Shown here piece after piece: positions 11,696-58,020 of a stretch of DNA of 64,000 nt. Origin of the DNA: an uncultured Candidatus Saccharibacteria bacterium (GTDB lineage: Bacteria > Patescibacteriota > JABMPQ01 > JAQVVF01). Position 1 is the stretch's first letter. Every line of letters begins with the position of its first letter. A program made the position numbers and the translations under genes. The stretch lies in assembly GCA_964574655.1 (NCBI GenBank), contig CAZNOH010000002.1, positions 108,596 to 172,595 on the forward strand, in the 5' to 3' direction. The notes under the pieces were generated by a model, which did not search any database, was not told the DNA's origin, and saw only the letters and a list, made by a program, of their open reading frames with translations.

Positions 11696-11753
11696 GTTTC
11701 TCCTCCTCGTATTGTGAAGTTTCTTGCCAAATCTTGGACTTTGTAGTATAGCA

Positions 11754-30146: not shown

Positions 30147-30213
30147 TTTACATAAAAGCCAGCAAATTAAAATGCTGGTTTTTTTAAATCATGAATGTTA
30201 TATTATCATAATC

Positions 30214-30322: not shown

Positions 30323-30334
30323 TATTAAGTATTA

Positions 30335-32020: not shown

Positions 32021-32356
32021 TTAGATCTTTACCATTTTCTCAATATTAACAATAAAAATAGTTGCTCCTCCAATTCTGATCTTTGTTGCTTCATCAACAT
32101 TCATTCCGCTTTCCATGCCATGAGTCATGTAGGCTGGAGCAGAGATTACTTTTTCTTTTGTTTCGCAGTTTTTCTTGATGATCTCTAAAACTTTATCAAT
32201 CTTTCCGTCCTCAACGCCAACTAAAAAAGTGGTGTTTTTTTTCTCTAAAAATCCGCCTTCTGAAGTCAATTTAGTCAAACTAAAATTTCCAGCAACTAAT
32301 TCTGACTTCAATTTTTTCGTATTTTCTTTAGGAGTGATTATTACTAATAGTTTCAT
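32021..32356 (-). CDS. darA: cyclic-di-AMP receptor DarA (PII-like, DUF970)
   Basis: MKLLVIITPKEN...LTKLTSEGGFLEKKNTTFLVGVEDGKIDKVLEII...IGGATIFIVNIE. I align this by eye to B. subtilis DarA ([36 protein letters not shown]...GGATVFVLPV). Confidence 0.75.
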   Translation of the reverse strand: MKLLVIITPKENTKKLKSELVAGNFSLTKLTSEGGFLEKKNTTFLVGVEDGKIDKVLEIIKKNCETKEKVISAPAYMTHGMESGMNVDEATKIRIGGATIFIVNIEKMVKI

Positions 32357-32419: not shown

Positions 32420-32556
32420 ATATAATAAAATAATTATAATACGAATAAAGTACGAATAATGCAAATGTTGCGAATTACGAATCGTCGTATTTGCAATTCG
32501 TATCATTTGCATTATTTGTATCTGCATTCGTATTATATTTTACCATTAACTACAGT
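32420..32556. repeat. intergenic palindromic element, tacgaat/attcgta subfamily (centre gcgaattacgaatcgtcgtat)
   Basis: acgaataatgcaaatgttgcgaattacgaatcgtcgtatt is almost identical to 57900-57945. Confidence 0.8.
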
Positions 32557-34515: not shown

Positions 34516-34631
34516 ATTAGAAACGATGCCAATCTACAAATTTTATGCCAATCTGCGAATTGCGAATCGTCTAAGCATTAGCAATCTGTAGATTGGCATA
34601 AAATTAGCATATTAGCATCATTTTATTTATT
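34516..34631. repeat. intergenic palindromic element (gccaatct/agattggc arms, centre gcgaattgcgaatcgtc)
   Basis: atgccaatctacaaattttatgccaatctgcgaattgcgaatcgtctaagcattagcaatctgtagattggcataaaattagcat. Confidence 0.8.
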
Positions 34632-34964
34632 ATGTCCCATAGACTTGAAAAATTAAACAGCCTAATTCAGCAAGAATTAGGTTTCATTATTAAAGAAGAA
34701 GTAGAATTGCCAATTGACTCATTGATCACAGTTTCCAAAGTTGATACTTCTGTTGACATCAAGCACACAAACGTGTATATTTCTGTGATCCCAAAAAACA
34801 AAGCAGTCAGCGTAATCAAAAAGCTCAATCACAATGTTTATCACCTCCAGCAAGCTTTAAACAAAAAATTAGTAATCCACTTCGTTCCAAAAATCAGATT
34901 TGTCTTAGACCATTCCGAAGAGCATGCCGCTCGCATCGAGGAAATCCTAAGCACAAAATCCTAA
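34632..34964 (+). CDS. rbfA: ribosome-binding factor A
   Basis: About 110 aa, in the conserved position after infB. LNSLIQQELGFIIKEEV...VSKVDTSVDIKHTNVYISV. Confidence 0.8.
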   Translation: MSHRLEKLNSLIQQELGFIIKEEVELPIDSLITVSKVDTSVDIKHTNVYISVIPKNKAVSVIKKLNHNVYHLQQALNKKLVIHFVPKIRFVLDHSEEHAARIEEILSTKS

Positions 34965-35090
34965 ATTCTAAATAAATTTAAAATCAAAAATATAAATGTT
35001 CAAAATCAGACGAAGAAATTTTGAACATTTGGAAATTTGGTTTTTGGATTTATTTAGAGTTTAGAATTTAGGATTTAGAATTTTGTAATC
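34965..35090. repeat. intergenic palindromic element, ctaaat/atttag subfamily
   Basis: ctaaattctaaataaatttaaaatcaaaaatataaatgttcaaaatcagacgaagaaattttgaacatttgg...ttggatttatttagagtttagaatttaggatttagaa. Confidence 0.75.
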
Positions 35091-36071
35091 ATGTTCAATT
35101 TTAATGACATTCAAATAAATCGCGCGCTTTATCTCATAAAGAAATCTCAAAATATTTTGATTATTTGTCATCGCAAGCCAGATGCTGACACTATTGGATC
35201 AGCATTGGCTTTAGGTAATATTTTGGAAAAACAAAATAAGAAAATTGAATATGCCTGCCAGGATCAAATTCCAGCCAAGTTTTTTTTCTTAAAAAATGCA
35301 AACAAAATAAAAAAAATTGATGAGATCTTAAAGGATTTTATTAATTATCAATTGCTGATTACTTTAGATTGCGGAAGCTTTGAACAAACAGGACTTCATA
35401 ATTTTTTCAGCATCAACGAATTTAAAACGCCAATTATAAATATTGATCATCATCATGACAATCCACATTTTGGCAGATTAAATATTATTAAAGCTAATGC
35501 TTCTTCAACTTCTGAAATTGTTCATAATTTTCTAGTAAAAATGAATGTTGATTTGGACAAGAATATTTCAACCAGTTTATTGAGTGGAATTTTTGCAGAC
35601 ACCGATAGTTTTAAAAATCCCAATACTTCTCATCACACTTTGAAAACTACATCCAGTCTTTTAGCTTCAGGCGCCAATCTAAAAGAAATTACAAAAAACA
35701 CTTTGCAAGATAAATCTTTGTCAACACTCAGACTTTGGGGTAAAATATTATCAGAAATAAAAAAGAATAAAACTTTCGGTATTGTTTACGCAGTCATTAT
35801 CAAAAAAGATTTGCAAGAATGTAATGCCAAGTCAGAAGATCTCGAAGGCATAGCAAATTTTTTGAATTCTATTCCTGATGTCAAAGCCTCATTAGTTTTA
35901 TCAGAAAATGAAAAAGGCGAAATCAAAGGTTCTCTTAGAACCTTGCATGATTATATTGATGTTTCCAAATTAGCGCGCAGTTTAGGAGGAGGAGGACACA
36001 AGAAGGCAGCAGGTTTTACAATTCCTGGCAGATTAATTAAGCAGGATAATGAGGTTAAGATAATAATTTAA
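35091..36071 (+). CDS. nrnA: DHH-family phosphoesterase NrnA (nanoRNase / pAp phosphatase)
   Basis: DHH motifs (ICHRKPDADTIGSALAL, DHHHDN) and a DHHA1 GGGGH motif (LGGGGHKKAAGFT). Confidence 0.75.
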   Translation: MFNFNDIQINRALYLIKKSQNILIICHRKPDADTIGSALALGNILEKQNKKIEYACQDQIPAKFFFLKNANKIKKIDEILKDFINYQLLITLDCGSFEQTGLHNFFSINEFKTPIINIDHHHDNPHFGRLNIIKANASSTSEIVHNFLVKMNVDLDKNISTSLLSGIFADTDSFKNPNTSHHTLKTTSSLLASGANLKEITKNTLQDKSLSTLRLWGKILSEIKKNKTFGIVYAVIIKKDLQECNAKSEDLEGIANFLNSIPDVKASLVLSENEKGEIKGSLRTLHDYIDVSKLARSLGGGGHKKAAGFTIPGRLIKQDNEVKIII

Positions 36072-36202
36072 AATCCTAAATCCTAAACTCTAAATTCTAA
36101 ATAAATTCAAATTACAAAATTAAAAATTCAAACAACGACGATTTTGTATTTTGGATTTTAAATTTATTTAGAATTTAGTATTTAGAGTTTAGAATTTAAT
36201 TT
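36072..36202. repeat. intergenic palindromic element, ctaaat/atttag subfamily (centre caaacaacgacgattttg)
   Basis: aaatcctaaatcctaaactctaaattctaaataaattcaaattacaaaat...attttgtattttggattttaaatttatttagaatttagtatttagagtttagaattt. Confidence 0.75.
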
Positions 36203-36964
36203 ATGTTTAGTAGTATCTCCGCCTATTTCTCAACATTTACTTTAATAAATTACATCACAACAATTTTAGACATTGGAATTGTTGCTGTTTTAATTTACTT
36301 TGTTTTTGCTTTTGTCAAAGGTACAAAAGCAACCAGAATTATTTATGGCATAATTATCTTAAGCATAGTTGTTGTCATTGGCAGATTATTAAGTCTGCAA
36401 ACTTTGAATTGGGTGTTGTCGCATTTAACATTATTAATTATTGTTGCAATACCAGTTGTCTTCCAGCCAGAACTAAGGCGTGCTTTGGAGAGACTAGGCC
36501 GTGCAAAATTCATTGGAAGCAACAAAAAAATGTCATTGAATGTTAAGGACATAATTCAGGCAATCGATATTTTAAAGAAAAATAAAATCGGTGCCTTAAT
36601 AGTTTTACAACGCAAGACCGGATTATTGGAATATATAGAATCTGGCACAGAGCTTAATGCCAATTTATCAACGGCATTATTATTAAATATATTTTTCCCA
36701 AATTCTCCGTTGCATGATGGTGCAGTAATTATATCTTCCAACAAAATTTTAGCAGCAGGTTGCATGTTGCCTCTTACAGAAGGCGAATATTCTTTAACTT
36801 ATGGCACTCGCCACAAAGCAGCTATCGGCGTTACCGAAAATACTGATGCTGTTGCTCTAGTTGTCTCTGAAGAAAGAGGAGAAGTATCTATTGCTGTTGA
36901 TGGCCAACTTGAAGAAAAAATAGGTGTTGATAAATTAGCGAACAAATTAGAACAATTAGTCTAA
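36203..36964 (+). CDS. cdaA: diadenylate cyclase CdaA (DAC domain)
   Basis: Three N-terminal TM helices, then DAC motifs GALIVLQRKTG, LHDGAVII and TRHKAAIGVTENTDAVALVVSEERGEVSIA. Confidence 0.85.
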   Translation: MFSSISAYFSTFTLINYITTILDIGIVAVLIYFVFAFVKGTKATRIIYGIIILSIVVVIGRLLSLQTLNWVLSHLTLLIIVAIPVVFQPELRRALERLGRAKFIGSNKKMSLNVKDIIQAIDILKKNKIGALIVLQRKTGLLEYIESGTELNANLSTALLLNIFFPNSPLHDGAVIISSNKILAAGCMLPLTEGEYSLTYGTRHKAAIGVTENTDAVALVVSEERGEVSIAVDGQLEEKIGVDKLANKLEQLV

Positions 36965-37098
36965 AATTTCTAATTTCTAATTTCTATTAAATTTTCATTG
37001 CTTCAATTTCTAAACTCGTCGACGGCGAACAGGTTTGAAAATTTATGCATTATAAATTTAATAAAAATTAGAAATTAGAAATTGAAAATTAAGTAACC
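36965..37098. repeat. intergenic palindromic element, ttctaattt/aaattagaa subfamily (centre aactcgtcgacggcgaacagg)
   Basis: aaatttctaatttctaatttctattaaattttcattgcttcaatttctaaactcgtcgacggcgaacaggtttgaaaatttatgcattataaatttaataaaaattagaaattagaaattgaaaatt. Confidence 0.8.
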
Positions 37099-39903: not shown

Positions 39904-41436
39904 ATGAATAGTCTAGTATTAATTGCAGTTGCTTCTGTTCTTGCGCTGGCCTTAGGCCTAGTAATCGGCTACATCTTAAGAAAGCTAATTGCCAAAAGCA
40001 GGCAAGATTCAGTTGAAGCAAAAACTCAAAATTTAGTAGAAACTGCAAAAGTAAAACAAAGAGAAATCCTATTAGAAACAAAGACTCAAGCTCTCGAAAT
40101 TAAAGAAAACGCTGAAAAAGAACAGCGAGAAGGAAGAGCCAAGCTTTTAGATTTTCAAGGAAAATTATCCCAAAGAGAAGGGATTTTGAATCAGAAATTA
40201 GAATCAATATCTCAAAAAGAAGAACAGCTAGAAAAAGGCAATCACACAGTCCAAAGAAAAACTCAAGAATTAGTCGAAATCCGCAAAAAGCAAATGGCAA
40301 CATTAGAAAAAGTTGCTTCTTTATCACGAGAAAAAGCCAAGGAAGTTCTTTTAGAAATGGTTGAAAAAGATCAGCAAGATCGTGTTTTAGAAATTGTCAA
40401 AAGAGCGGAAGACCGTGCCAAGGACGAGGCAGATACAAAGGCTCGCAATATTATTTCCCAAGCTATTGAAAAATATGCTCGATCTCAAGCTTCCGAATCA
40501 ACAGCTACAACCGTATCTTTGCCTTCTGATGAAATGAAGGGCAGAATTATCGGTCGTGAAGGCAGGAACATCAAGAAAATAGAAGAGCTTTGCGGTATTG
40601 AAATTGTTGTTGATGACACGCCAGAGGCAATCGTCATTTCTGGGTTCAATCCAATCAGGCGCCACGTAGCCAAGAGAACATTAGAAAAATTAATTCAAGA
40701 TGGTCGTATTCATCCAGCCAAAATTGAAGAAACAGTTGAGCAGGTCAAAAAAGAGATTGCTCGTGAAATCAAAGAAGCTGGCGAGCAAACAGTTTACGAA
40801 CTTGGTATTGCCGACTTAGATACAAAATTAGTTCAGTTATTAGGTCGTTTGCAATTCAGATCATCTTATGGCCAAAATGTTTTAAAGCACTCAATTGAAG
40901 TTGCGAATTTTTCCAAAATAATCGCTTCCGAGTTAGGAGCTGATGTTGAAATTGCTAAAAGAGCTGGCTTGCTTCATGATATTGGCAAGGCTGTTGATCA
41001 TGAAATTGAAGGAACGCATATTGAAATTGGTAAAAATATCTTGAAAAAGTTTGGCGTTTCCGAAGCAATCATTCATGCAATGGAATGTCATCATGAAGAT
41101 TATGAGCCAAAAACAGTTGAAGCAGTAATCGTTAAAGCTGCTGATGGAATTTCAGGTGCCAGACCAGGAGCTCGAAAAGACACTTATGAAAATTACATAA
41201 AACGTTTAACTGATCTTGAAAACATTGCGTTAAGTTTTGAAGGCGCTGAAAAAGCTTATGCTATTCAAGCTGGCCGTGAAGTTCGTGTTTTTGTCACTCC
41301 TGACCAAGTTGATGATTTAGCGGCTAAGAAATTATCTCAGAACATTGCTGACAAAATAGAAAAAGAATTAAAATATCCAGGCGAAATTAAAATCAGTGTA
41401 ATCCGTGAAACTAGAGCTGTGGATTTTGCTAGATAA
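39904..41436 (+). CDS. rny: ribonuclease Y
   Basis: N-terminal TM, coiled coil, KH domain (GRIIGREGRNIKKIEELCG) and HD domain (LHDIGKAVDHE). Confidence 0.9.
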   Translation: MNSLVLIAVASVLALALGLVIGYILRKLIAKSRQDSVEAKTQNLVETAKVKQREILLETKTQALEIKENAEKEQREGRAKLLDFQGKLSQREGILNQKLESISQKEEQLEKGNHTVQRKTQELVEIRKKQMATLEKVASLSREKAKEVLLEMVEKDQQDRVLEIVKRAEDRAKDEADTKARNIISQAIEKYARSQASESTATTVSLPSDEMKGRIIGREGRNIKKIEELCGIEIVVDDTPEAIVISGFNPIRRHVAKRTLEKLIQDGRIHPAKIEETVEQVKKEIAREIKEAGEQTVYELGIADLDTKLVQLLGRLQFRSSYGQNVLKHSIEVANFSKIIASELGADVEIAKRAGLLHDIGKAVDHEIEGTHIEIGKNILKKFGVSEAIIHAMECHHEDYEPKTVEAVIVKAADGISGARPGARKDTYENYIKRLTDLENIALSFEGAEKAYAIQAGREVRVFVTPDQVDDLAAKKLSQNIADKIEKELKYPGEIKISVIRETRAVDFAR

Positions 41437-41567
41437 AAAAATAACTCGCTAATAGTTTGCGAATATTTGCTAATCTTTTGCTAATAAAGTTTATTTCATG
41501 GTCATTGTCTTTTACTTTATTCGCAAACTATTCGCAAATATTAGCAAATTATTAGCGATCAACTTTT
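41437..41567. repeat. intergenic palindromic element, tagcaaat/atttgcta subfamily
   Basis: It shares tcattgtcttttactttatt and ttagcaaattattagcgat with the copy at 43582-43745. Confidence 0.8.
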
Positions 41568-42359: not shown

Positions 42360-42510
42360 AGAATAAAAATTCTAAATTCTAAATCCCAAACTCTAAATAA
42401 ATTCAAAATTTAAATTTCCAAAAGTTTCAAAAATTTAGAATTTTGGATTTTATATTTATTTAGAATTTAGAATTTAGTGTTTAGGATTTTTTTTAAAATA
42501 AAAATAATTT
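42360..42510. repeat. intergenic palindromic element, ctaaat/atttag subfamily
   Basis: aaattctaaattctaaatcccaaactctaaataaattcaaaatttaaatttccaaaagtttcaaaaatttagaattttggattttatatttatttagaatttagaatttagtgtttaggatt. Confidence 0.75.
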
Positions 42511-43581: not shown

Positions 43582-43745
43582 GAAAGTTATTAACATTTGA
43601 TCATTTGCTATTATATTTTGGCTTAGTTATAATAAAAACAACTTCGCTAATCATTTGCTAATACTTGCGAATAATTTGCTAATAAAAATTATTTTATGAT
43701 CATTGTCTTTTACTTTATTAGCAAATTATTAGCGATTAATGAAGG
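43582..43745. repeat. intergenic palindromic element, tagcaaat/atttgcta subfamily (sister copy of 41437-41567)
   Basis: cgctaatcatttgctaatacttgcgaataatttgctaataaaaattattttatgatcattgtcttttactttattagcaaattattagcgat. Confidence 0.8.
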
Positions 43746-44039: not shown

Positions 44040-44095
44040 AACTTAAAATTTTAATATATTTTTAAAGACGAGAATTTGCTTCTCGTCTTTTTAAT

Positions 44096-44190
44096 TATTG
44101 CGTTCCGACCCCTGCCATGGGCAGGGTAGAATTTTCGCCCACTTGTCAAAAAAATAGCAACTTCTACCCTCCCCATGGGAGGGGTAAAGA
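44096..44190. terminator. GC-rich compound hairpin region: ccctgcc-atg-ggcaggg, gggtagaa...ttctaccc, ccctccc-cat-gggaggg
   Basis: Read directly. The same ccctgcc/ggcaggg stem occurs after tRNA-Leu at 12128-12146. Confidence 0.5.
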
Positions 44191-44232
44191 AAGTTTTTTT
44201 AGTTTTTTAATTTTTTATGTTAAAATCATTTC

Positions 44233-46422
44233 ATGAATCAAATCCTAGATCAACTTAATCCAATTCAACGCGAGGCTGTTTTGCATCAAAATGGTCCTCT
44301 TTTAATTTTAGCTGGTGCCGGTTCTGGCAAAACAAAAACACTCACTCATCGCATTGCTTATCTGGTTTCGCAAGGCGTTTCGCCTTACCACATTTTAGCA
44401 GTTACTTTTACCAATAAAGCTGCGCAAGAGATGAAAAGCCGTGTTAGTAAATTAATGCGAGGAATTCAGAATAGAGAAAAGAGAATAGAGAAAAAATTCC
44501 CAATCTTGCCAACCTTGCCTATTGGCCAGGCAGGCAACAGACAAGTTCTCAATTCTCAATTCTCAATTCCGTTTCTTGGCACCTTTCATTCAGTTTGCGT
44601 TAAAATATTGCATCATGAAATTCATCATCTCGGTTATAGCAGAAATTTCAATATTTACGATTCCGAAGACCAGCTGTCGGCAATCAAACAATCAATGCGC
44701 AAATTGAATTATAATACTAACGAAATAAATCCAAGAATTATTCACTCAATAATTTCTAGTGCTAAGAATGACCTTTTAGATTTTAATGATTTGAAGAATA
44801 GATCTAACGAATTTATTGAAGAGGTTGCCGGAGAAACTTATGCCGTTTATCAAGCTTTTTTGAAAGAAAATAATGCTTTAGATTTTGATGATTTGATTAT
44901 GATGACAATCAAAATTTTCCAGAAATTTCCAAAAATATTAGCAAAATATCAAAATCAATTCAAATATATTTTAGTCGATGAATATCAGGATACCAACAAA
45001 GCGCAATATTTATTAATTAATCTTTTATCAAAACGCTATCAAAACATTACTGTTGTTGGTGATGACTGGCAATCAATTTATAGCTGGCGCGGCGCTGATA
45101 TTTCTAATATTTTAAATTTTGAAAAAGATTTTAAAAAAGCAAAAACATTAAAACTAGAACAAAATTATCGTTCTACTCAAAATATTCTGGATGTTGCGCA
45201 TTGCATAATCTCCAAAAATAAAAATAAAAAAAACAAAAAATTATGGACAGATAATGAAAAAGGAGATAAGCCAGTTTTGTTTGAAGCCGAAGACGAACGA
45301 GAAGAAGCAAATTACATAATAAACGAAATAAAAGATTCACAACAGCAATATAACAGATTTGTTGTTTTGTATCGCACCAATGCCCAATCACGATCTTTGG
45401 AAGAAAATTTTTTAAAGCATAACATTCCATACAAAATAATCGGTGGCTTAAAATTTTACGAACGAAAGGAAATCAAAGATATTCTTGCTTATCTTAGAGT
45501 TATCAATTCTTTCAAAGACACAGTTGGATTAAGCCGGATAATCAATACTCCGCCAAGAAGAATTGGCGCTAAAACTTTGGGAGCATTAGAAAAATATGCT
45601 AAACAAAATAAAATTGATTATATCAAAGCTTCAATCGCTTCTGAAAATATCTCAGGAGTATCAGCTCAAACCAAAAATAATCTCAACCAATTTGGCTTGA
45701 TTATGGAATATTTGAATAAGAAATCAAAAACAATTAACCTAACTTCTTTAATTGACCTATTATTAGCAAAAATAAATTACAAAGAATTTATTTTAGATGG
45801 AACAGAAGAAGGGGAATATCGTTGGGAGAATGTTCAAGAATTAAAAACTGTTGCTTCAAAATTTGATAAAAACACAGAAGGCTTGTCCAAATTTCTAGAA
45901 GAAGTTGCGCTAGTTTCAGATACAGATGAAGTTAATGACAAAAACAATGCTGTCACTTTAATGACTATGCATGCTACAAAAGGACTGGAATTTAGTAATG
46001 TTTTTATTGTCGGATTAGAAGAAAATCTTTTTCCTCATTCAAGAGCTTTAGCATCGCAAGAAGAGCTTGAAGAGGAGAGAAGATTGTGTTATGTTGCTAT
46101 GACCCGTGCCAAAGAAAAATTATACCTAACTTTTGCTAGAACGCGCGAGATTTATGGTCAAATGCAATCCAATCCGCAATCTCGTTTTATTGAGGATATT
46201 CCCAAAAAAAATCTTAATAGCCATTCAAAAAGTTTTAATGCAAAAACAATTTATCAAGACAATAAAAAAGATTGTGAATTTAAGTCCGGAGACAAGGTCA
46301 GGCATTCGCAATTTGGCAAAGGATTAGTTATTGGCTTTTCCGAAGATTTGATAACAGTAATATTCGAAAAAATTGGAATAAAGAAACTTGCACTTGAATA
46401 TGCCAAGTTGAAAAAATTTTGA
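44233..46422 (+). CDS. pcrA: ATP-dependent DNA helicase PcrA/UvrD family
   Basis: LNPIQREAV, Walker A AGAGSGKTKTLTHRIA, TFTNKAAQEM, GTFHS, VDEYQDTN. It contains an about 29-aa insertion between motifs I and Ia (see findings). Confidence 0.9.
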   Translation: MNQILDQLNPIQREAVLHQNGPLLILAGAGSGKTKTLTHRIAYLVSQGVSPYHILAVTFTNKAAQEMKSRVSKLMRGIQNREKRIEKKFPILPTLPIGQAGNRQVLNSQFSIPFLGTFHSVCVKILHHEIHHLGYSRNFNIYDSEDQLSAIKQSMRKLNYNTNEINPRIIHSIISSAKNDLLDFNDLKNRSNEFIEEVAGETYAVYQAFLKENNALDFDDLIMMTIKIFQKFPKILAKYQNQFKYILVDEYQDTNKAQYLLINLLSKRYQNITVVGDDWQSIYSWRGADISNILNFEKDFKKAKTLKLEQNYRSTQNILDVAHCIISKNKNKKNKKLWTDNEKGDKPVLFEAEDEREEANYIINEIKDSQQQYNRFVVLYRTNAQSRSLEENFLKHNIPYKIIGGLKFYERKEIKDILAYLRVINSFKDTVGLSRIINTPPRRIGAKTLGALEKYAKQNKIDYIKASIASENISGVSAQTKNNLNQFGLIMEYLNKKSKTINLTSLIDLLLAKINYKEFILDGTEEGEYRWENVQELKTVASKFDKNTEGLSKFLEEVALVSDTDEVNDKNNAVTLMTMHATKGLEFSNVFIVGLEENLFPHSRALASQEELEEERRLCYVAMTRAKEKLYLTFARTREIYGQMQSNPQSRFIEDIPKKNLNSHSKSFNAKTIYQDNKKDCEFKSGDKVRHSQFGKGLVIGFSEDLITVIFEKIGIKKLALEYAKLKKF

Positions 46423-46425
46423 ATA

Positions 46426-46513
46426 TTCTACCTGGCTTTAGCCAAGGGGTTAAAGGACTTTAGTCCTCGTTGGAGCTAAAGCTCCACGACCCTTCGGCTA
46501 AAGCCGAGTAGAA
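46426..46513. other. structured element: four consecutive mini-hairpins with cTTTAg/cTAAAg loops, enclosed by the outer stem ttctac/gtagaa
   Basis: ggctttagcc, ggactttagtcc, ggagctaaagctcc, cggctaaagccg. Hairpins 1/4 and 2/3 are mutual reverse complements. Confidence 0.6.
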
Positions 46514-46524
46514 AAATTTACATT

Positions 46525-47310
46525 ATGTTTCCCAACAAATTTCTCGGACAAAATTTTTTAGAAAATGAAGAAGTCGTTGACAAGATATTATCAGTCGCTG
46601 ATTTGTCATCTCAAGATACTGTATTGGAAGTTGGTCCAGGACAAGGCGCGATTACAGAAAAGTTATGCCCAAAAGTTAAACAAGTTATCGCAATAGAAAA
46701 AGATAAAGAATTAGTTGAATATTTACAAAACAAATTTAAAAGCACAAAAAACCTAAAAATTATCGCAGGCGATATTTTACAACAGCAATATTCAATATTT
46801 AATATTAAAGATTATAAGATAATATCGAACTTGCCATTTTATCTTACCTCGCGTTTTTTACGAATATTTCTTGAATTAGAAAACAAGCCAACCATGATGG
46901 TTTTAATAATTCAAAAAGAAGTTGCTCAGAGAATCTGCGACGAAGCTCCGCAGGCTAGTCTTCTTTCAAATTCTGTCCAATTCTATGCCAAGCCAGAAAT
47001 TATCGCTTTTGTATCAAAGAAAAATTTTAATCCAGCTCCAGAAGTTGATACTGCAATTATAAAAATAAATGTTTTACAAGAGCCGAGAATAAAAGTTGAC
47101 GATGTAAATAAATTTTTTAAAATATTAAAAATTGGCTTTTCTCAAAAGAGAAAACAACTTCATAACAATTTTTCTTCAGGTCTGCATATTAGCAAAGAAG
47201 AAACAAAAGAATTATTGCAAAAAGCAGGCATTGATTCAGAAAGAAGAGCTCAAACATTGAGTTTAGAAGAGTGGGCAAAATTATATCGAATATTGAATAT
47301 TAAAGATTAA
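46525..47310 (+). CDS. rsmA: 16S rRNA (adenine1518-N6/adenine1519-N6)-dimethyltransferase RsmA/KsgA
   Basis: LGQNFLENEEVVDKIL, SAM-binding VLEVGPGQGAITEKL, and ISNLPFYLTS. Confidence 0.85.
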   Translation: MFPNKFLGQNFLENEEVVDKILSVADLSSQDTVLEVGPGQGAITEKLCPKVKQVIAIEKDKELVEYLQNKFKSTKNLKIIAGDILQQQYSIFNIKDYKIISNLPFYLTSRFLRIFLELENKPTMMVLIIQKEVAQRICDEAPQASLLSNSVQFYAKPEIIAFVSKKNFNPAPEVDTAIIKINVLQEPRIKVDDVNKFFKILKIGFSQKRKQLHNNFSSGLHISKEETKELLQKAGIDSERRAQTLSLEEWAKLYRILNIKD

Positions 47311-47485
47311 ATATTATAGTTATACACACCTATCAAAAATCAAAGTAATTATTAATCTATTTAGGCTTTAACAAGGAAAAATAACTAATATTCAATATTA
47401 AATATTCAGTATTCTCGTCTTTGACACAAATTGGTAAAATTGGTATTATTAAGCCAAGCAAAAAAATCTTTAAAACAAAAAACAA

Positions 47486-51870: not shown

Positions 51871-53286
51871 ATGTTAAAAATAGACCCAAACAATTTAAAA
51901 AATCCACAAGAATTTGAAAAAATATCCAAAGAAGCGCAGGAGTGCGATCATTTTAATTATGTTGGTGAATATGGAGTGAGATCTTATCAAACAATGTTAG
52001 CAATTGACGAAGCTCTAGAAAAAAATCCTCAATTCAAAAATGAAGACCAAGAACTATACAAAAAATATTGCGATCTTAGTCTTTATCTAAAATTTCATAA
52101 TTTAGAACGCTTACCAGAAGATAATAATGTTTTAGAATTACTAGAAAAAAATTTTTGTGATGCTTTAAAGAAAAATCTTAATTTAGAAGAATGGCTCAGA
52201 GCAAAAGTAATGATGATCGGTCTTCCTTTTCGAAATGAATTTCTCGAAAAGACACTTTCTGCCATCAAAAAAAATCTGCAAAAAATTGGCACAAAAAACA
52301 TTATAATTAGCAATAAAGAAGTAGAACCAACTATTCAAAATTGGATCAAAGATTATGAATATACTTCTGAGCCAGGCATTCACTCTTTGCTTGAACGCAA
52401 TGACTATTTTATCCATTCTAAAAACGTTAGAAATTTAAATGAAGATGAAAAAAAGCAAATCAAAATGCTTTTGCAACTTTATGATAAATTACATCTGAAA
52501 GTAACTGATATTGGAGGCTTGGGGAGCTATCCGCCGTCAATGTACGGCATTGATCTAAAAAAGCCAGTTGCAGTCGAAGATTTTACTACTAAAGAATTAC
52601 AAAAAGTTAACAAATCAGTTCAGGAATCAGCCGGAACTGTTCATCCCATTCCTTTTCCAACTTCAAAAACAGAAAAACGAGAAAAAATGCTAGCTGAAAA
52701 CAAAAAAGAAGCTGAAAAAGCAATGCAAGGCGCTGTTGATATAAAAAAGCTAGAAGCACAAGAGCCAGGAAATAAATTTATCACGTCTTTGAAAAAAATT
52801 GGCAAACCAAGAAAAAAAAATGAAAAAATAAAAACAGCAGAAACAAAAGTAATTAAAGCAGTGCCTGAAAAAGAAGTTGTTGAGGAAATTTCAAAACCAG
52901 AAACAGAGCTACCAAATCCTCCTAAAAAAGTTTTTCATAAAGAACACAAAGTTTTAACATCCTCAAAGCCAGTTTCAGCAGAAATCAGCAAAATTAAAAA
53001 TATAAATTTGCTAGAATTCAAAAAACTTGGCGCAACAGCAAAACAAGCTGCTCAAGTTTTGCTTAACAATATCCGCGAAGTTGCGAAAACTCATGATGAG
53101 CGAAAAGCAGCGCAAGAAAATTTTATGAAAAGTCCTTTATTCAAATTATACGAAGCAATCGCAAATCAAAGCACATCAGAAAAGAAATCAGTCAGTCAGA
53201 TAGCAGAGGATAGAAAAAAACAAGGAACAGAGTTTCTTACTGAAGACGAATATATTGCGGTTAAAAGCATCAGTAAGCTAATTTAA
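51871..53286 (+). CDS. hypothetical charged (K/E-rich) protein in the T4SS-like cluster
   Basis: 471-aa ORF, no recognisable motif. Confidence 0.5.
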   Translation: MLKIDPNNLKNPQEFEKISKEAQECDHFNYVGEYGVRSYQTMLAIDEALEKNPQFKNEDQELYKKYCDLSLYLKFHNLERLPEDNNVLELLEKNFCDALKKNLNLEEWLRAKVMMIGLPFRNEFLEKTLSAIKKNLQKIGTKNIIISNKEVEPTIQNWIKDYEYTSEPGIHSLLERNDYFIHSKNVRNLNEDEKKQIKMLLQLYDKLHLKVTDIGGLGSYPPSMYGIDLKKPVAVEDFTTKELQKVNKSVQESAGTVHPIPFPTSKTEKREKMLAENKKEAEKAMQGAVDIKKLEAQEPGNKFITSLKKIGKPRKKNEKIKTAETKVIKAVPEKEVVEEISKPETELPNPPKKVFHKEHKVLTSSKPVSAEISKIKNINLLEFKKLGATAKQAAQVLLNNIREVAKTHDERKAAQENFMKSPLFKLYEAIANQSTSEKKSVSQIAEDRKKQGTEFLTEDEYIAVKSISKLI

Positions 53287-53458
53287 AATTTCGAATTTTA
53301 AATTTTAAATAAATTTCGAAATAAGAATTTTAAAATTCGTTGCAGAGTTTTAAGCTACTGGTTCTGCATAAAATGGTAAAGAAGCAAGTAGTAGTCATTA
53401 GAAATTAAAGAATTTAAAATTTATTTTAAATTTGAAATTATAAATTTGAAATTAACGT
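53287..53458. repeat. intergenic palindromic element, aaattt/ttaaaat word subfamily
   Basis: aaaatttcgaattttaaattttaaataaatttcgaaataagaattttaaaattcg...attagaaattaaagaatttaaaatttattttaaatttgaaattataaatttgaaatt. Confidence 0.7.
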
Positions 53459-53893
53459 ATGCAATACCCAATTCCACAATTTGTTGAAATAGAGGACCAG
53501 ATTATTGGCCCGCTCACTCTCAAACAGTTTTTCTTTTTGCTTGGTGGTGGAATATTTCTATTGATTTCCTGGTCTTTTGTTGATCTCGCATTATTTATTT
53601 TTTTAGCAGTTATCGTTGGTTTCATAGTCGTGCCATTGGCTTTTGTCAAGCCATACGGACGTCCGTTGACAAATTATCTTTCCGCAGTTTTTAAATATAT
53701 ACTTGGCCCAAAGATACTAGTCTGGCACAAAAGTAGCAGAGCTCCAAGAGTAAAAGCTTATGATCTTGCAAATAAAAAGAAAGGTCCTGAAAAAATTACA
53801 ATCGGCGAAAAAAAGTATACACCGAGCAGTATTCACCGATTGGCAAGGCAATTAGATTTTAAGACAGTAATGAGCGAAGACGAAAAGAAGTAA
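53459..53893 (+). CDS. PrgI-family / VirB3-like small T4SS membrane protein
   Basis: MQYPIPQFVEIEDQIIGPLTLKQFFFLLGGGIFLLI, then a second TM. This matches the PrgI-family N-terminal signature and precedes VirB4. Confidence 0.55.
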   Translation: MQYPIPQFVEIEDQIIGPLTLKQFFFLLGGGIFLLISWSFVDLALFIFLAVIVGFIVVPLAFVKPYGRPLTNYLSAVFKYILGPKILVWHKSSRAPRVKAYDLANKKKGPEKITIGEKKYTPSSIHRLARQLDFKTVMSEDEKK

Positions 53894-53956: not shown

Positions 53957-54313
53957 ATGCTTAAAGAAAAAGATAAGCAATACGATTTAGAAGAAAGAAC
54001 CGCAAAATTTGCAGAAGGCATAATCGATCTTTGCCAAGGCCTACCGCAAACAGCAATTACTAAGTCAACGATAAGCCAGATAATTCGTTCAAGCTCAAGT
54101 ATCGGCGCAAACTATTGCGAAGCAAACGGCGCAAGCTCAAAAAAAGATTTTAGGAACAAAATATTTATCTGTAAGAAAGAAGCTCAGGAAACACGATATT
54201 GGATAAGAATATTGGCTAAATGTTTACCAAACAAAAAAGAAGACTTGCGAAATCATTGGAAGGAGTGTCAAGAATTAACACTAATTTTTGGTAAAATTGC
54301 ATCAAAGTTATAG
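53957..54313 (+). CDS. four-helix-bundle protein (TIGR02436, 23S-rRNA-IVS-type family)
   Basis: About 118 aa. EERTAKFAEGIIDLCQGLP...IIRSSSSIGANYCEANGASSKKDFRNKIFICKKEAQETRYWIRIL. Confidence 0.7.
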   Translation: MLKEKDKQYDLEERTAKFAEGIIDLCQGLPQTAITKSTISQIIRSSSSIGANYCEANGASSKKDFRNKIFICKKEAQETRYWIRILAKCLPNKKEDLRNHWKECQELTLIFGKIASKL

Positions 54314-55244: not shown

Positions 55245-57080
55245 ATGCAAGATAAAGACTTACCAATCGGTAAAAAAAATATTGAAAATATAAGTCAAGC
55301 CGAGCAAGAAGAGATTCTTAAGGCTGAAGAAATTTACAGAAAGGGTCTGGTTTCGATTCGCGATATTATTGCGCCAAGTGCTTTGCAAGTCAATCCAAAT
55401 TATCTTAAATTAGGTGATAAGTTCGTCAGAACTATATTCATTTTTACTTATCCTCGTTTTGTCAATACTGGCTGGTTTGCTCCAGTCATTAATATGAATA
55501 TTGAAGCTGATATGGCAATGTATATTTCACCTGTTGAATCAGAAAAAATATTAAAAACATTAAAAAATAAAGTAGGACAAATTCAGTCAACTATTGCCGG
55601 AAAACAGGAAAAAGGTGATGTCCGAGATCCAATGCTAGAAACAGCATTAAATGATGTTGAAGAACTTCGTGATCGTTTAATTCAGGGCACAGAAAGATTT
55701 TTCCATTTTGCATTATATATCACTCTTTATGAGAATTCTGAAAAAAAACTAGATAAAACCACCAAAGAAATAGAGGATCTATTAGGTCAAAGACTGATCT
55801 ATTCAAAGCGAGCATTTTTTCAAGCTGAACAAGGATTTAATACCACAACGCCATTAGGTCTTGACGAGCTTGGCGTTCTTAACAATTTTAATACTTCACC
55901 TTTATCAACTAGTTTTCCATTTGTTTCTTCGGAATTGACTTCTGATGAAGGCATTCTTTATGGAATCAACCGCCACAATAATAGCTTGATTTTATTTGAT
56001 CGTTTCTCCTTGCCAAATGCCAATTCAGTAGTATTCGCCACATCTGGTGCTGGTAAAAGTTACGCCGTTAAATTAGAAATATTAAGGTCTTTAATGTTTG
56101 GTACAGAAGTTATAGTCATTGATCCAGAAAATGAATATAAATATTTATGTGAATCAGTCGGCGGAACATTTTTGAAAATGTCTCTAGAGTCAGAATACAG
56201 ATTGAATCCTTTTGATCTGCCATCTGCAATTTCTGGAATGAAAACCAAAGATATTATTCGGTCAGCAGTTATTAATATAAAAGGTTTGCTTAGAATTATG
56301 CTTGGTCGTTTGACAAAAGAAGAAGATGCTTTGCTTGATAGCGCAATTATTCAAACTTACGCCAAAAAAGATATAACTCCAGATTCTGATTTATCAAAAA
56401 TAGAAGTTCCAACAATGAAAGATTTGCAAGAAATTCTTGAAGGCATGCAAGGAGCAGAAGACATTGTTCCAAGAATAAAAAAATATACAGAAGGAACTTT
56501 TGCCGGTCTTTTGAATCAGGCAACCAATGTCCAAATTGACAATCCATTTGTTGTTTTTAGCATTAGAGATTTAGAGGACGAGTTACGTCCAATTGCCATG
56601 TATGTTATTTTAAATCACATCTGGAATATCGTCAGAGCTCAAATGAAAAAAAGAATTCTAGTTGTCGATGAAGCATGGTGGATGATGCAATATGAAGAAT
56701 CAGCCAGATTTATGTATGGCATTGCCAAAAGAGGAAGAAAATATTATCTAGGCACAACAACAATTTCTCAAGATGTTAATGATTTCTTAACATCAGATTA
56801 TGGAAAAGCAATCGTAACAAATTCCGCATTGCAATTGTTATTAAAGCAGTCTCCAGCCTCTATTGATTTATTAAAAAAAACTTTTTATTTAACTGAAGAA
56901 GAAAAATATTTATTATTAGAATCAGATGTTGGTGAAGGAATTTTCTTTGCAGGTTCAAAACATGTTGCAATAAAAATAGTTGCCTCATATTCTGAAGATC
57001 AGATTATTACAACAGATCCAAAACAATTACTAGAGCTAGAACAGGCTAAGAAAAATTACGAAGAAGAGCAAAACGCATAA
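55245..57080 (+). CDS. VirB4/TrbE-family T4SS ATPase, central and C-terminal ATPase part (split gene, part 2)
   Basis: IIAPSALQVNPNYLKLGDKFVRTIFIFTYPRFV, Walker A FATSGAGKSYAV, Walker B ILVVDEAWWMM. Confidence 0.65.
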   Translation: MQDKDLPIGKKNIENISQAEQEEILKAEEIYRKGLVSIRDIIAPSALQVNPNYLKLGDKFVRTIFIFTYPRFVNTGWFAPVINMNIEADMAMYISPVESEKILKTLKNKVGQIQSTIAGKQEKGDVRDPMLETALNDVEELRDRLIQGTERFFHFALYITLYENSEKKLDKTTKEIEDLLGQRLIYSKRAFFQAEQGFNTTTPLGLDELGVLNNFNTSPLSTSFPFVSSELTSDEGILYGINRHNNSLILFDRFSLPNANSVVFATSGAGKSYAVKLEILRSLMFGTEVIVIDPENEYKYLCESVGGTFLKMSLESEYRLNPFDLPSAISGMKTKDIIRSAVINIKGLLRIMLGRLTKEEDALLDSAIIQTYAKKDITPDSDLSKIEVPTMKDLQEILEGMQGAEDIVPRIKKYTEGTFAGLLNQATNVQIDNPFVVFSIRDLEDELRPIAMYVILNHIWNIVRAQMKKRILVVDEAWWMMQYEESARFMYGIAKRGRKYYLGTTTISQDVNDFLTSDYGKAIVTNSALQLLLKQSPASIDLLKKTFYLTEEEKYLLLESDVGEGIFFAGSKHVAIKIVASYSEDQIITTDPKQLLELEQAKKNYEEEQNA

Positions 57081-57217
57081 TGAATTTACAATCTTCAATA
57101 ATCAATTTTCAATAAATTTCCAATTTACAATTTCCAAATCGCGAAAGTTTTTGAAAAATTGATCATTGATAATTTATTGAAAATTGGTAATTGAAAATTA
57201 GAAATTAATTTATAACT
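57081..57217. repeat. intergenic palindromic element, caattt/aaattg subfamily (sister of 491-593)
   Basis: caattttcaataaatttccaatttacaatttccaaatcgcgaaagtttttgaaaaattgatcattgataatttattgaaaattggtaattgaaaattag. Confidence 0.8.
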
Positions 57218-57886: not shown

Positions 57887-58020
57887 AAATAATAATACGA
57901 ATGCGGATACGAATAATGCAAATGTTGCGAATTGCGAATCGTCGTATTCGTAATTCGTATCATTCGCATCATTCGCATTATTCGTACGTTTATTCGTATT
58001 ATGTATAGACGATTTATAAA
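57887..58020. repeat. intergenic palindromic element, tacgaat/attcgta subfamily (centre gcgaattgcgaatcgtcgtattcg)
   Basis: taatacgaatgcggatacgaataatgcaaatgttgcgaattgcgaatcgtcgtattcgtaattcgtatcattcgcatcattcgcattattcgtacgtttattcgtattat. Confidence 0.8.

What the first reader, a model, noticed from the sequence alone, without database searches (positions are those of the whole stretch)
44455..44580. In-frame insertion inside pcrA composed of the same repeat words as the intergenic elements
Between helicase motif I (GSGKT) and motif Ia (GTFHS) this PcrA has about 40 residues: RGIQNREKRIEKKFPILPTLPIGQAGNRQVLNSQFSIPFLG. I know E. coli UvrD has about a dozen here (RIGQLMGTSQGGMWVGTFH). So roughly 29 extra residues are present.

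The encoding DNA is built from ggaattc-agaatagagaaaagagaatagagaaaa-aattcc and gttctcaattctcaattctcaattcc. These are tandem words of the caattt/ctcaatt type found in the intergenic elements (compare ttttcaattctcaattttc at 511-530), bounded by a ggaatt/aattcc inverted pair.

This looks like a palindromic-element fragment inserted into a coding region with the reading frame preserved. Such an insert is tolerated in a surface loop of the 1A domain. It shows the repeat family can invade genes.
Basis: partly seen in the sequence, partly recalled or inferred. Interest (0 to 1): 0.55.

Follow-up and report, generated by a model that had tools for sequence, protein, structure and literature searches.

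The report
In-frame hairpin repeat inside pcrA
A hairpin-forming repeat of about 110 bases sits in frame inside the DNA-helicase gene pcrA of an uncultured Patescibacteria (CPR) bacterium, adding about 31 probably disordered residues to a loop that is a recurrent landing site for small palindromic repeats in this group, much like the 'selfish DNA in proteins' known from Rickettsia.

Summary
This segment is 16-18 residues in about 50 non-CPR PcrA genes but 16-67 in 117 CPR homologues.

The DNA folds into a long imperfect hairpin (-44.2 kcal/mol, z = -5.7). Its arms are 7-nt word arrays, as in the roughly 20 long intergenic hairpins of the window.

It looks composite rather than a copy of an intergenic element:
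- The 3' word array (TTCTCAA x3) sits where the closest relatives (88-69% identity) also have heptamer arrays.
- The GC-rich tip belongs to a small palindrome family (…CCTTGCCTACCGGCAGGCAGG…). That family occurs at three or more other sites of pcrA in other genomes, including a clean filled-versus-empty site in this clade.
- The 5' arm is an inverted, stop-codon-free version of the 3' arm and has no relative elsewhere.

AlphaFold2 predicts an intact PcrA fold with the insert disordered.

Best reading: translated, neutral or selfish repeat DNA tolerated in a permissive loop. It resembles Rickettsia palindromic elements and cyanobacterial heptamer/small-dispersed repeats. I found no CPR report in the held paper library. 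Whole-genome copy number, translation and the spreading enzyme were not tested.

The parts
44233..46422 (+). pcrA/uvrD-type SF1 helicase gene, 729 aa, all helicase motifs intact
   Evidence: PF00580, PF13361, PcrA_UvrD_tudor; it shares all invariant columns of 117 homologues; the model matches 3PJR_A (TM 0.89 normalised to the target, 45% identity).
44404..44424 (+). helicase motif Ia (TFTNKAA, residues 58-64), upstream boundary landmark
   Evidence: Translation; alignment to PcrA 1PJR.
44458..44565 (+). inserted coding segment (residues 76-111, RGIQNREKRIEKKFPILPTLPIGQAGNRQVLNSQFS); net +31 aa relative to canonical PcrA
   Evidence: 35 residues replace 4. (48 aa against a 16-18 aa baseline). 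(residues 86-108 have pLDDT <50).
44456..44581 (+). full extent of the predicted long imperfect hairpin (RNA or single-stranded DNA)
   Evidence: -44 kcal/mol, z = -5.7; the most stable fold wholly inside an AT-rich ORF of the window.
44461..44494 (+). 5' arm: GGAATT, then the heptamer words AGAATAG AGAAAAG AGAATAG AGAAAA (a 14-nt unit twice). It is an inverted, diverged copy of the 3' arm, with all three would-be TGA triplets changed.
   Evidence: searches (D2, I1-I3; lag-7 segment 44458-44498), (no relative elsewhere), and direct reading of the sequence.
44495..44545 (+). inner module: AATTCCCAATCTTGCCAACC, then the GC palindrome TTGCCTATTGGCCAGGCAGGCAA, then CAGACAAG. The tip hairpin spans 44507-44537. 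It encodes PILPTLPIGQAGNRQ.
   Evidence: it aligns over about 80 nt with elements in P0010, P0028 and P0115 pcrA (nhmmer E = 7e-18); core CCTTGCCTACCGGCAGGCAGG; a related 33-nt module at a filled-versus-empty site in P0003.
44546..44570 (+). 3' arm: (TTCTCAA)x3 then TTCC. This heptamer array occupies the same position as the arrays in the closest relatives (CAATWTC x4 in P0003, CGAYYTC x4 in P0004).
   Evidence: D3; alignment A1; lag-7 segment 44531-44578; 17/18 match to 509-526 and 558-575.
44578..44592 (+). helicase motif Ib (GTFHS, residues 116-120), downstream boundary landmark

Best explanation
The segment is translated repeat DNA. It is a composite, hairpin-forming insertion in a permissive loop of PcrA domain 1A. 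It was produced by the same fast repeat dynamics that fill this genome's intergenic regions with long hairpins made of 7-nt words.

**Most likely history (inferred).**
1. The clade's ancestor already had a short heptamer-word array in the Ia-Ib loop.
2. In the window's lineage a small GC-rich palindromic module of about 30 nt landed inside that array. It belongs to the dispersed family …CCTTGCCTACCGGCAGGCAGG…, which encodes LP(A/T)GRQ.
3. An inverted copy of the 3' word array, about 40 nt, arose on the 5' side and created the long hairpin. The likely route is intrastrand template switching or recombination.

**Filter.** Only variants whose length is a multiple of 3 and that lack in-frame stops survive. 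That explains why the 5' arm departs from perfect complementarity at the would-be TGA triplets.

**Consequence.** The peptide is a disordered excursion with no required function. The hairpin is a by-product of how the repeat is built, not a conserved regulatory signal for pcrA. In effect this is selfish or neutral DNA remodelling a protein loop, as with Rickettsia palindromic elements. How the modules are copied is unknown.
For: **Shown.**
- The insertion is real and in frame: +31 aa relative to solved PcrA and about 50 non-CPR orthologues.
- It forms a strong hairpin (z = -5.7) whose arms are heptamer words, like the intergenic hairpins. It is the only such structure inside any of 51 ORFs.
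- The loop is hypervariable only in CPR. It is 16-67 aa in 117 homologues and exceeds 19 aa in 92 of them. The peptides are unrelated and word-derived or palindrome-derived.
- Relatives at 88, 78 and 69% identity have 30-, 23- and 30-aa versions, with heptamer arrays at the 3' end in P0003 and P0004 (less clearly in P0002). They lack the 5' arm, the GC tip and the hairpin.
- The GC module is copied between sites. An 85-nt element is about 90% identical between the Ia-Ib loop of P0010 and residue ~472 of P0028. P0007, 75% identical to P0010, has no insert.
- P0003 has a 33-nt in-frame module at residue ~345 where the window, P0002 and P0004 are empty.
- A profile of four elements detects the window's copy at E = 7e-18.
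- The 5' arm has no relative anywhere in the data. Three of its four mismatches to the 3' arm remove the three TGA triplets a perfect complement would carry, including the in-frame one at 44473-44475. This is read directly from the sequence; by my own count the chance probability is about 0.04.
- Only 10 of 108 reading frames through the intergenic hairpins are stop-free. The pcrA insert is open only in the frame that is used.
- AF2 gives an intact fold (mean pLDDT 85.7) with insert residues 86-108 below 50, and the model matches 3PJR at TM 0.89.
- Hairpin elements turn over fast. Orthologous intergenic slots in the sister contig hold entirely different hairpins between conserved flanks.
Against: - Only 64 kb of the genome was available, so other copies of the whole element or of its 5' arm cannot be excluded.
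- The order of events rests on four sequences and on alignments of low-complexity DNA. Loss of a full ancestral hairpin in three relatives is mechanistically easy. As MAFFT places them, the two 'gained' pieces are 41 and 34 nt, and only their sum (75) is a multiple of 3.
- Translation of the insert is inferred from the open frame, not observed.
- No transposase, RAYT or integrase is encoded in the window, so no copying mechanism is identified.
- The exact protein is known from a single contig, so assembly or population heterogeneity could not be checked.
- The whole-insert peptide has no relatives in 1.84 billion representative proteins. That fits rapid evolution but gives no independent support.
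Confidence: 0.68

Rival explanations
1. Single-event MITE-like insertion. The complete hairpin of about 110 nt (arms plus tip) inserted once in the ancestor of the clade. P0002, P0003 and P0004 then lost the 5' arm and tip by palindrome-stimulated deletions, keeping remnants.
For: - The ends form an inverted pair, GGAATT...AATTCC.
- Length and shape match the intergenic hairpins.
- All four clade members are longer than the 17-aa baseline at this site.
- Palindromes are deletion-prone (general knowledge).
Against: - It needs three independent in-frame losses against one gain on the tree ((window, P0002), P0003), P0004.
- There is no second copy and no target-site duplication in the window.
- The tip module is demonstrably mobile on its own.
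- The arms are not related to any other element in the data.
Confidence: 0.17
2. Selected nucleic-acid structure. The hairpin acts within the pcrA transcript or DNA, for example as an RNase III site, a translational pause, an attenuator or a protein-binding site.
For: The fold is very stable. The genome encodes RNase Y (39904-41436) and is rich in long hairpins that probably act at the RNA level between genes.
Against: - The hairpin is absent from the three closest orthologues (z of -0.8 and +0.4 for the two that were folded).
- There is no T-run and no terminator-like call.
- There is no Rfam family; the best hit is 18.5 bits against a gathering score of 99.
- Other CPR inserts at this loop are mostly one-armed arrays that cannot fold.
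Confidence: 0.05
3. Adaptive protein loop. The extra 31 residues provide a new interaction or regulatory surface on PcrA.
For: The first third of the insert is predicted to extend the motif-Ia helix (helix 61-85). One CPR subclade has a conserved 29-30-aa non-repetitive insert at this site (YPEADKNYKYSLYGNSNLP, 34 homologues), so the loop can be domesticated.
Against: - The sequence is unique to one contig.
- Residues 86-108 have pLDDT <50.
- The peptide is dictated by DNA word repeats.
- Relatives at 88% identity have an unrelated sequence at the site.
Confidence: 0.05
4. Artefact or non-translated segment: an assembly chimera at a repeat, or a segment bypassed or removed before or during translation.
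For: Repeats and hairpins are classic sites of misassembly. The protein is seen on one contig only. Hairpin-associated translational bypass exists in phage T4 gene 60 (my own knowledge).
Against: - The segment is exactly in frame and stop-free only in the gene's frame.
- Independent assemblies of related organisms carry comparable inserts at the same codon positions.
- There is no stop after a take-off codon and there are no matched take-off and landing codons (direct reading).
Confidence: 0.05

Closest known systems
Rickettsia palindromic elements (RPEs; Ogata et al. 2000, as summarised in PMC10969869)
   Same: Palindromic repeats of about 100-150 bp found both between genes and in frame inside unrelated housekeeping genes. 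They are translated as extra peptide segments compatible with the protein fold, and are interpreted as selfish DNA.
   Different: - Different phylum, with no sequence relationship tested or expected.
- RPE copies within a genome are recognisably homologous over their whole length and encode a conserved peptide. Here no second full copy is seen in 64 kb.
- The arms here are low-complexity heptamer arrays that differ from element to element.
- The insert here looks assembled from parts at a pre-existing variable array.
Cyanobacterial STRR heptanucleotide tandem repeats and 'small dispersed repeats' (SDR; Elhai et al. 2008, Genome Res 18:1484). The reference is listed in PMC3116915 but the paper is not held, so its content is from my memory.
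   Same: - Tandem 7-nt words, often arranged as hairpins between genes.
- Very small palindromic modules (about 20-30 nt) nested inside those arrays, present or absent between close relatives.
- As I recall, STRR arrays also extend a helix inside the RNase P RNA gene of heterocystous cyanobacteria.
   Different: - Different phylum and different word sequences.
- STRR and SDR are described mainly in non-coding DNA and RNA genes. Here the array plus module lies in frame in a protein-coding gene.
- No mechanism is established for either system.
REP/REPIN elements mobilised by RAYT transposases (PMC3116915; PMC3733652)
   Same: Short GC-rich imperfect palindromes, dispersed mostly between genes, sometimes forming larger hairpins as doublets. 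They are often nested and located near terminators.
   Different: - No GTAG/CGTC head is visible by direct reading of the ~19-nt core.
- No RAYT gene in the window.
- REPs are extragenic by definition.
- The core here occurs in contigs of GC 0.31-0.68 with unrelated stems.
Bacterial MITEs that create in-frame fusions (ERIC, BOX, Correia, Anabaena MITEs; PMC10969869)
   Same: Small non-autonomous inverted-repeat elements that can sit inside ORFs and add peptide segments.
   Different: No terminal inverted repeats matching an IS, no target-site duplication and no parent transposase could be identified here.

Membership tests
PcrA/UvrD SF1A helicase (host gene) | UvrD-helicase N- and C-terminal domains with motifs Q, I, Ia, Ib, II-VI and the four-subdomain fold | tested here: met
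   (PF00580 1e-90, PF13361 2e-77). (all invariant columns shared). (model TM 0.89 to 3PJR_A).
RPE-like in-frame palindromic repeat | A hairpin-forming sequence of about 100-150 nt | tested here: met
   126 nt, arms 84% complementary, z = -5.7.
RPE-like in-frame palindromic repeat | Inserted in frame in a conserved protein-coding gene without disrupting it | tested here: met
   +31 aa, stop-free only in the gene's frame, motifs intact.
RPE-like in-frame palindromic repeat | Member of a multi-copy family with homologous copies elsewhere in the same genome | tested here: inconclusive
   There is no second copy of the whole unit in the 64-kb window and the rest of the genome is not available. The inner module has homologues in other genomes.
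RPE-like in-frame palindromic repeat | Sequence homology to the described RPE-1 to RPE-10 families | not tested
   No RPE reference sequences were compared. Homology is not expected across phyla.
RPE-like in-frame palindromic repeat | Encoded peptide lies on the protein surface, away from the catalytic core | tested here: inconclusive
   AF2 models the insert as a low-confidence loop (residues 86-108 pLDDT <50) on an otherwise confident fold. Solvent exposure and distance to the DNA/ATP sites were not computed from coordinates.
MITE | Terminal inverted repeats plus a target-site duplication | tested here: inconclusive
   The ends GGAATT/AATTCC are inverted. No convincing direct duplication flanks the unit: only AAT/AATT in AT-rich DNA. 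The P0003 module is flanked by a direct TTTCCGAA, which may be a duplication or part of the element.
MITE | A related autonomous IS or transposase in the genome | tested here: inconclusive
   No transposase, integrase or Y1 transposase Pfam hit at E <= 1e-5 in 50 window ORFs besides pcrA. Only the 64-kb window was tested, not the genome.
REP/REPIN | A 20-40-nt imperfect palindrome with a GTAG/CGTC head, extragenic, associated with a RAYT gene | tested here: not met
   The core is a ~19-nt palindrome with no GTAG/CGTC head (direct reading). It lies within a gene here. There is no RAYT in the window.
STRR/SDR-type heptamer arrays with nested small palindromes | Tandem heptanucleotide words, strongly enriched over other periods | tested here: met
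   23 lag-7 segments against 0-4 at other lags; 31 per 197 kb in CPR loci against 13 per 611 kb in non-CPR loci.
STRR/SDR-type heptamer arrays with nested small palindromes | A small (~20-30 nt) palindromic module nested within the arrays and present or absent between close relatives | tested here: met
   (words, then core, then words in the same orientation). (33-nt filled-versus-empty site). (tip absent in P0003).
STRR/SDR-type heptamer arrays with nested small palindromes | Cyanobacterial origin and the described unit sequences (e.g. CCCCAGT; SDR1-8) | tested here: not met
   The host is a Patescibacteria-type genome (homologue names). The words here are TTCTCAA, AGAAWAG, AAATCCT and GCGAAT. 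The resemblance is one of kind, not of membership.

The most novel reading that the evidence does not exclude
CPR/Patescibacteria genomes may harbour a transposase-independent, structure-targeted copying process. It would make heptamer-word arrays, nest small GC palindromes such as CCTTGCCTACCGGCAGGCAGG into them, and grow them into long hairpins. Such a process would continuously replace intergenic hairpins and also rewrite surface loops of essential proteins. Which word families can enter genes would be set by a simple rule: because 7 is coprime to 3, only words without stop codons in any cyclic phase can sit in an ORF. The pcrA insert would then be a snapshot of all three steps at one site.
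Probability: 0.3. Interest if true: 0.75.

Novelty: new variant of a known kind. Interest (0 to 1): 0.57.

Why it matters
- **New host group.** In-frame palindromic repeats in housekeeping genes are a textbook oddity of Rickettsia. Seeing the same outcome in CPR bacteria, with a different architecture, suggests that repeat-driven remodelling of protein loops is a general feature of small, host-dependent genomes. I found no report of it for CPR in the held library.
- **Practical consequences.** These inserts inflate the apparent divergence of CPR proteins. They create lineage-specific low-complexity loops such as LPAGRQ, NPSPYKGEGG and DANxRMxSESAN that can mislead alignments, phylogenies and domain calls.
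- **Annotation and strain markers.** The Ia-Ib loop of PcrA is a hot spot and could be masked. Conversely it could serve as a fast-evolving strain marker.
- **An entry point to the mechanism.** The filled-versus-empty site and the complete turnover of hairpins between genomes whose PcrA proteins are 88% identical give a concrete way to look for the unknown process that makes heptamer hairpins.

Tried and rejected
- **Word-indexed protein search with the insert peptide.** One call failed on the E-value limit, one on the 40-aa minimum, and the valid one found no candidate sharing three 5-mers.
- **Exhaustive HMMER search of the 42-aa peptide against 1.84 billion representatives.** The only hit was a 1345-aa spurious ORF through a tandem repeat containing LPAGR. 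It is not informative about gene invasion.
- **The window's own genome in the GTDB representative set.** It is not there; the best PcrA match is 49% identical. Genome-wide copy number could therefore not be measured.
- **Rfam.** The whole window at gathering thresholds gave only a tRNA. The insert at E <= 10 gave only chance miRNA-precursor look-alikes. A known RNA family is rejected.
- **Intrinsic terminator inside pcrA.** There is no T-run and the scan does not call one. Rejected.
- **Translational bypass or an intron-like element.** The frame is open, and there are no take-off/landing codon pair and no stop. Rejected by inspection.
- **'Same words as the intergenic elements' at k-mer level.** Only the 3' arm is modestly enriched in intergenic DNA (2.0 against 0.75 per kb). 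The 5' arm and the tip are not.
- **A second intragenic case in ksgA (46780-46822).** It is a short word array in a variable loop with a 3-aa indel against the sister genome, not a hairpin insert.
- **Elhai et al. 2008.** The paper could not be read; it is not held. Comparison with SDRs therefore rests on my memory.
Full report
**1. What is at the coordinates**

The ORF 44233-46422 (+) encodes a 729-aa UvrD/PcrA-type helicase. The segment lies between motif Ia (TFTNKAA, residues 58-64) and motif Ib (GTFHS, residues 116-120), not between I and Ia.

- Against solved G. stearothermophilus PcrA the alignment splits. Query 2-78 matches PcrA 6-83 and query 114-222 matches 88-196. So 35 residues stand where PcrA has 4, a net gain of 31.
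- The stretch from FTNKAAxEM to GTFH is 48 aa here.
- In loci retrieved from GTDB representative genomes it is 16-18 aa in essentially every Bacillota, Chloroflexota, Actinomycetota or other non-CPR genome, and 22 aa in Atribacterota.

The insertion is therefore real and corresponds to nt 44458-44565.

**2. The DNA is a long hairpin with heptamer-word arms**

- The arms 44461-44485 and 44546-44570 are 84% complementary. Each arm is internally repetitive: AGAATAGAGAAAA twice and TTCTCAATTC twice, both at a spacing of 14.
- The 141-nt region folds at -44.2 kcal/mol against -25.2 +/- 3.3 for 200 dinucleotide shuffles (z = -5.7; none as stable).
- The window holds about 20 long hairpins of 70-190 nt (mostly 100-140) whose arms are also built from 7-nt words. 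Several sub-families are visible: AAATCCT/TCTAAAT, CAATTTC, ACAAAAA and GCGAAT.
- Segments with at least 20/28 self-matches number 23 at lag 7 and 0-4 at every other lag from 3 to 14. Twenty are intergenic arms, two are the two pcrA arms, and one is a short array in ksgA.
- In a GC-corrected sliding fold, all 42 windows with z < -4 are not wholly inside any ORF. The pcrA insert is the most stable structure inside any AT-rich ORF (z = -3.5).

The architectural link to the intergenic elements is solid. The sequence link is weak:
- Only the 3' arm matches one element (490-594), 17 of 18 nt.
- 8-mers of the 5' arm and the tip are not enriched in intergenic DNA.
- No second copy of the unit exists in the 64 kb.

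**3. The loop is a CPR-specific hot spot**

- Among 117 homologues, mostly annotated Moranbacteria, Parcubacteria or Patescibacteria, the Ia-Ib segment ranges from 16 to 67 aa. It exceeds 19 aa in 92 of them.
- Many inserts are obviously translated repeats:
  - IPTLPTGRQVSNEFSN (P0010)
  - PASPAGRQATSKISNSQFSN (P0115)
  - NPSPYKGEGG (P0016, P0052)
  - HPELVSGSQ (P0090)
  - DANQRMNSNSRIN, DANNANKHANDAN and similar (P0014, P0026, P0028, P0043, P0080), which is what GCGAAT-type words encode
- Where DNA was fetched, the same building blocks appear: heptamer arrays just upstream of the LP(T/F)(V/L)-GTFH codons, with or without a GC palindrome. Examples are ACAAGCT x4 in L013, CCAAGCT x5 in L023, AATACCN x5 in L034 and AAGAACT x4 in L006.
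- Four or more other loops of PcrA show the same kind of insert in other species: after residues ~367, ~472, ~545 and ~671 of the window protein.
- One subclade of 34 sequences has a conserved, non-repetitive 29-30-aa insert (YPEADKNYKYSLYGNSNLP). It is unrelated to the window's insert.

**4. The closest relatives**

Pairwise identities give ((window, P0002) 88%, P0003 78%, P0004 69%). This clade is about 50% identical to the Moranbacteria group.

At the site the relatives have 30, 23 and 30 aa. Their DNA shows the following:
- P0003 and P0004 have four heptamer words each (CAATWTC and CGAYYTC), in the same position as the window's TTCTCAA x3. P0002's 3' segment is only loosely word-like.
- No 5' arm and no GC tip. 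The P0002 and P0004 segments that were folded show no significant structure (z of -0.8 and +0.4).
- Relative to P0003, the window has two extra pieces: 41 nt (the 5' arm) and 34 nt (the GC tip), 75 nt in total.

Four members of the P0002 cluster keep the 30-aa version but change residues in it.

**5. The tip is a member of a dispersed, mobile small palindrome family**

- An ~85-nt element (words, then CCTTGCCTACCGGCAGGCAGG, then words in the same orientation) is about 90% identical between the Ia-Ib loop of P0010 and a different loop (residue ~472) of P0028. P0007, 75% identical to P0010, has no insert at the Ia-Ib site.
- A profile built from four such elements, the window's among them, recovers the window's copy (44491-44571) at E = 7e-18. 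It also finds a copy in P0003's pcrA at yet another site.
- That site gives a clean filled-versus-empty comparison within the window's own clade. P0003 has 33 extra in-frame nucleotides, ATTTCCGAACCTTGCCTACCGGCAGGCAGGTTT, flanked by a direct TTTCCGAA. The window, P0002 and P0004 have none.
It usually sits at the tip of a longer hairpin whose stem differs from contig to contig. Only 5 of 124 occurrences lie inside long ORFs.
- A copy also sits between galT and the HU gene in the sister contig L001.

**6. The 5' arm looks locally derived and filtered by the reading frame**

- It has no relative in any fetched sequence.
- A perfect complement of the 3' arm would read GGAATTGAGAATTGAGAATTGAGAAC, with three TGA triplets, one of them in frame at 44473-44475. 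The real arm has TCA, AGA and AGA at those places. These account for 3 of the 4 mismatches between the arms (read from the sequence). By simple counting, four random mismatches hit all three triplets with probability about 0.04.
- More generally, a heptamer array of 21 nt or more is read in all three phases. Only words free of stop codons can sit in genes.
- Only 10 of 108 frame readings of the window's intergenic hairpins are open. Those belong to the GCGAAT and ACAAAAA families.

**7. Consequence for the protein**

- AlphaFold2 with the 117-sequence alignment gives mean pLDDT 85.7.
- The motif-Ia helix is extended to residue 85. Residues 86-108 are below 50, and the strand at 114-117 resumes the canonical fold.
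- The model superposes on the PcrA-DNA complex 3PJR_A with TM 0.89 (normalised to the target) and rmsd 3.4 Å.

This fits a tolerated, disordered loop. Exposure was not computed from coordinates.

**8. Context: rapid turnover**

Four orthologous intergenic regions were compared with the sister contig L001: galT-HU, HU-pcrA, pcrA-ksgA and ksgA-next. Promoter-proximal flanks and a simple terminator are conserved. The large hairpin element in each slot is completely different or absent. Hairpin elements are therefore replaced on the time scale that separates genomes whose PcrA proteins are 88% identical. That fits a recent origin of the pcrA hairpin.

No transposase, RAYT or integrase is encoded in the window. 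There is no Rfam family and no terminator-like call in the insert.

**9. Interpretation**

Shown:
- a real, in-frame, hairpin-forming, heptamer-word insertion in a CPR-specific hypervariable loop;
- a tip module that is copied between sites and genomes;
- no conservation of the hairpin among close relatives.

Inferred:
- stepwise assembly (array, then module, then inverted arm);
- translation into a neutral disordered loop;
- filtering by frame and stop codons.

Unknown:
- the copying mechanism and the origin of the 7-nt period.

**10. Comparison with known systems**

- The outcome matches Rickettsia palindromic elements: in-frame palindromic repeats in housekeeping genes (PMC10969869).
- The building blocks match, in kind, the cyanobacterial STRR heptamers and small dispersed repeats. 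The Elhai 2008 reference was confirmed, but its content is from my memory because the paper is not held.
- It is not a member of either family by sequence or host. It fails the REP/REPIN criteria.
- Full-text searches found no paper describing such elements in CPR/Patescibacteria. That covers only the held library.

I rate it a new variant of a known kind, of moderate interest in itself. The interest would be higher if the heptamer-hairpin process behind it proves to be a distinct mechanism.

Noticed in passing
window 490-594, 2861-2998, 6222-6360, 11870-11996, 30209-30327, 31459-31588, 31885-32022, 32451-32520, 34521-34623, 34942-35083, 36071-36197, 36956-37092, 41437-41567, 42362-42494, 53274-53459, 57079-57210, 57892-58002, 61405-61575: Many intergenic gaps carry a long (70-190 nt) imperfect hairpin whose arms are tandem 7-nt words. 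Several word sub-families occur, and loops are often CG-containing (CGACG/CGTCG). Some are flanked by A-runs and T-runs like bidirectional terminators. Lag-7 periodicity is about ten times commoner than any other lag.
   Followed up: partly
window 43582-43745, 44040-44232, 46423-46524, 47311-47485 versus L001 1254-1508, 1791-1993, 4130-4215, 5008-5270: Orthologous intergenic slots in a sister genome (PcrA 88% identical) hold entirely different hairpin elements, or none, while the surrounding intergenic flanks and a simple terminator are conserved. The elements are replaced rather than slowly diverging.
   Followed up: partly
L003 about 1085-1130 (P0003 pcrA, residues ~339-349): A 33-nt in-frame insert, ATTTCCGAACCTTGCCTACCGGCAGGCAGGTTT (ISEPCLPAGRF), is flanked by a direct TTTCCGAA. 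It is absent at the same place in the window, P0002 and P0004. This is a clean filled-versus-empty site for a very small palindromic module.
   Followed up: partly
metagenome loci L089-L208: The exact 19-mer CTGCCTACCGGCAGGCAGG occurs in more than 120 contigs with GC from 0.31 to 0.68. It typically sits at the tip of a longer hairpin with unrelated stems, sometimes nested in CCTGCC repeats or in 'ccctctcccc…ggggagaggg' palindromes. Only 5 of 124 occurrences are in long ORFs.
   Followed up: partly
window 46780-46822 (ksgA/RrnaAD ORF 46525-47310): A short heptamer-like array (CAATATT CAATATT TAATATT…) encodes QQQYSIFNIKDY in a variable loop. The sister protein has FPNFSISEYQKY there, with a 3-aa indel. 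Related words recur just downstream of the gene (47277-47416).
   Followed up: partly
window 44108-44185: Just upstream of pcrA, two small GC-rich palindromes (CCCCTGCCATGGGCAGGG and CCCTCCCCATGGGAGGGG) pair with each other through TAGAA/TTCTA flanks. The sister genome has a heptamer-word hairpin in this slot instead.
   Followed up: partly
window 46425-46512: The pcrA-ksgA spacer is one nested, GC-rich multi-stem hairpin (-50.6 kcal/mol for 102 nt) built from GGCTTTAGCC/GGCTAAAGCC-type units. It is unrelated to the 'GTCATTCTGAG…' hairpin in the same slot of the sister genome.
   Followed up: no
window 10100-11900: This is a GC-rich island (0.48 over 10001-12000, locally 0.57-0.61, against about 0.32 elsewhere). 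It has overlapping ORFs on both strands, none with a Pfam hit, and no Rfam hit. It lies next to a heptamer hairpin (11870-11996) and a tRNA (12015-12097). It could be foreign DNA or an unrecognised structured RNA.
   Followed up: no
proteins P0075, P0105, P0118: Some CPR PcrA homologues are 1096-1128 aa and carry an intein-type domain (PF14890). PcrA in this group therefore hosts several kinds of selfish insertion.
   Followed up: no
proteins in alignment A2: 34 CPR PcrA homologues share a conserved, non-repetitive 29-30-aa version of the Ia-Ib segment (…YPEADKNYKYSLYGNSNLPTI). It may be an old insert that became fixed.
   Followed up: no
window 53957-54313: A gene for a '23S rRNA-intervening sequence protein' family member (PF05635, E = 7e-18) sits inside a type-IV-secretion-like cluster (PrgI 53459-53893, TraG/VirB4-like 55245-57080), far from any rRNA.
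   Followed up: no
window 614-2803 and 61559-63208: Four tandem paralogues of T4SS pilin (PF18895), each separated by short spacers, plus a fifth pilin domain fused to SLT and GDSL domains at the other end of the window.
   Followed up: no
protein P0121: A 1345-aa 'protein' in the representative library is a translated tandem DNA repeat of about 50-55 codons per unit. Each unit contains LPSLPAGRSQ, the same GC palindrome read in frame. It is an example of repeat DNA being called as a gene.
   Followed up: no
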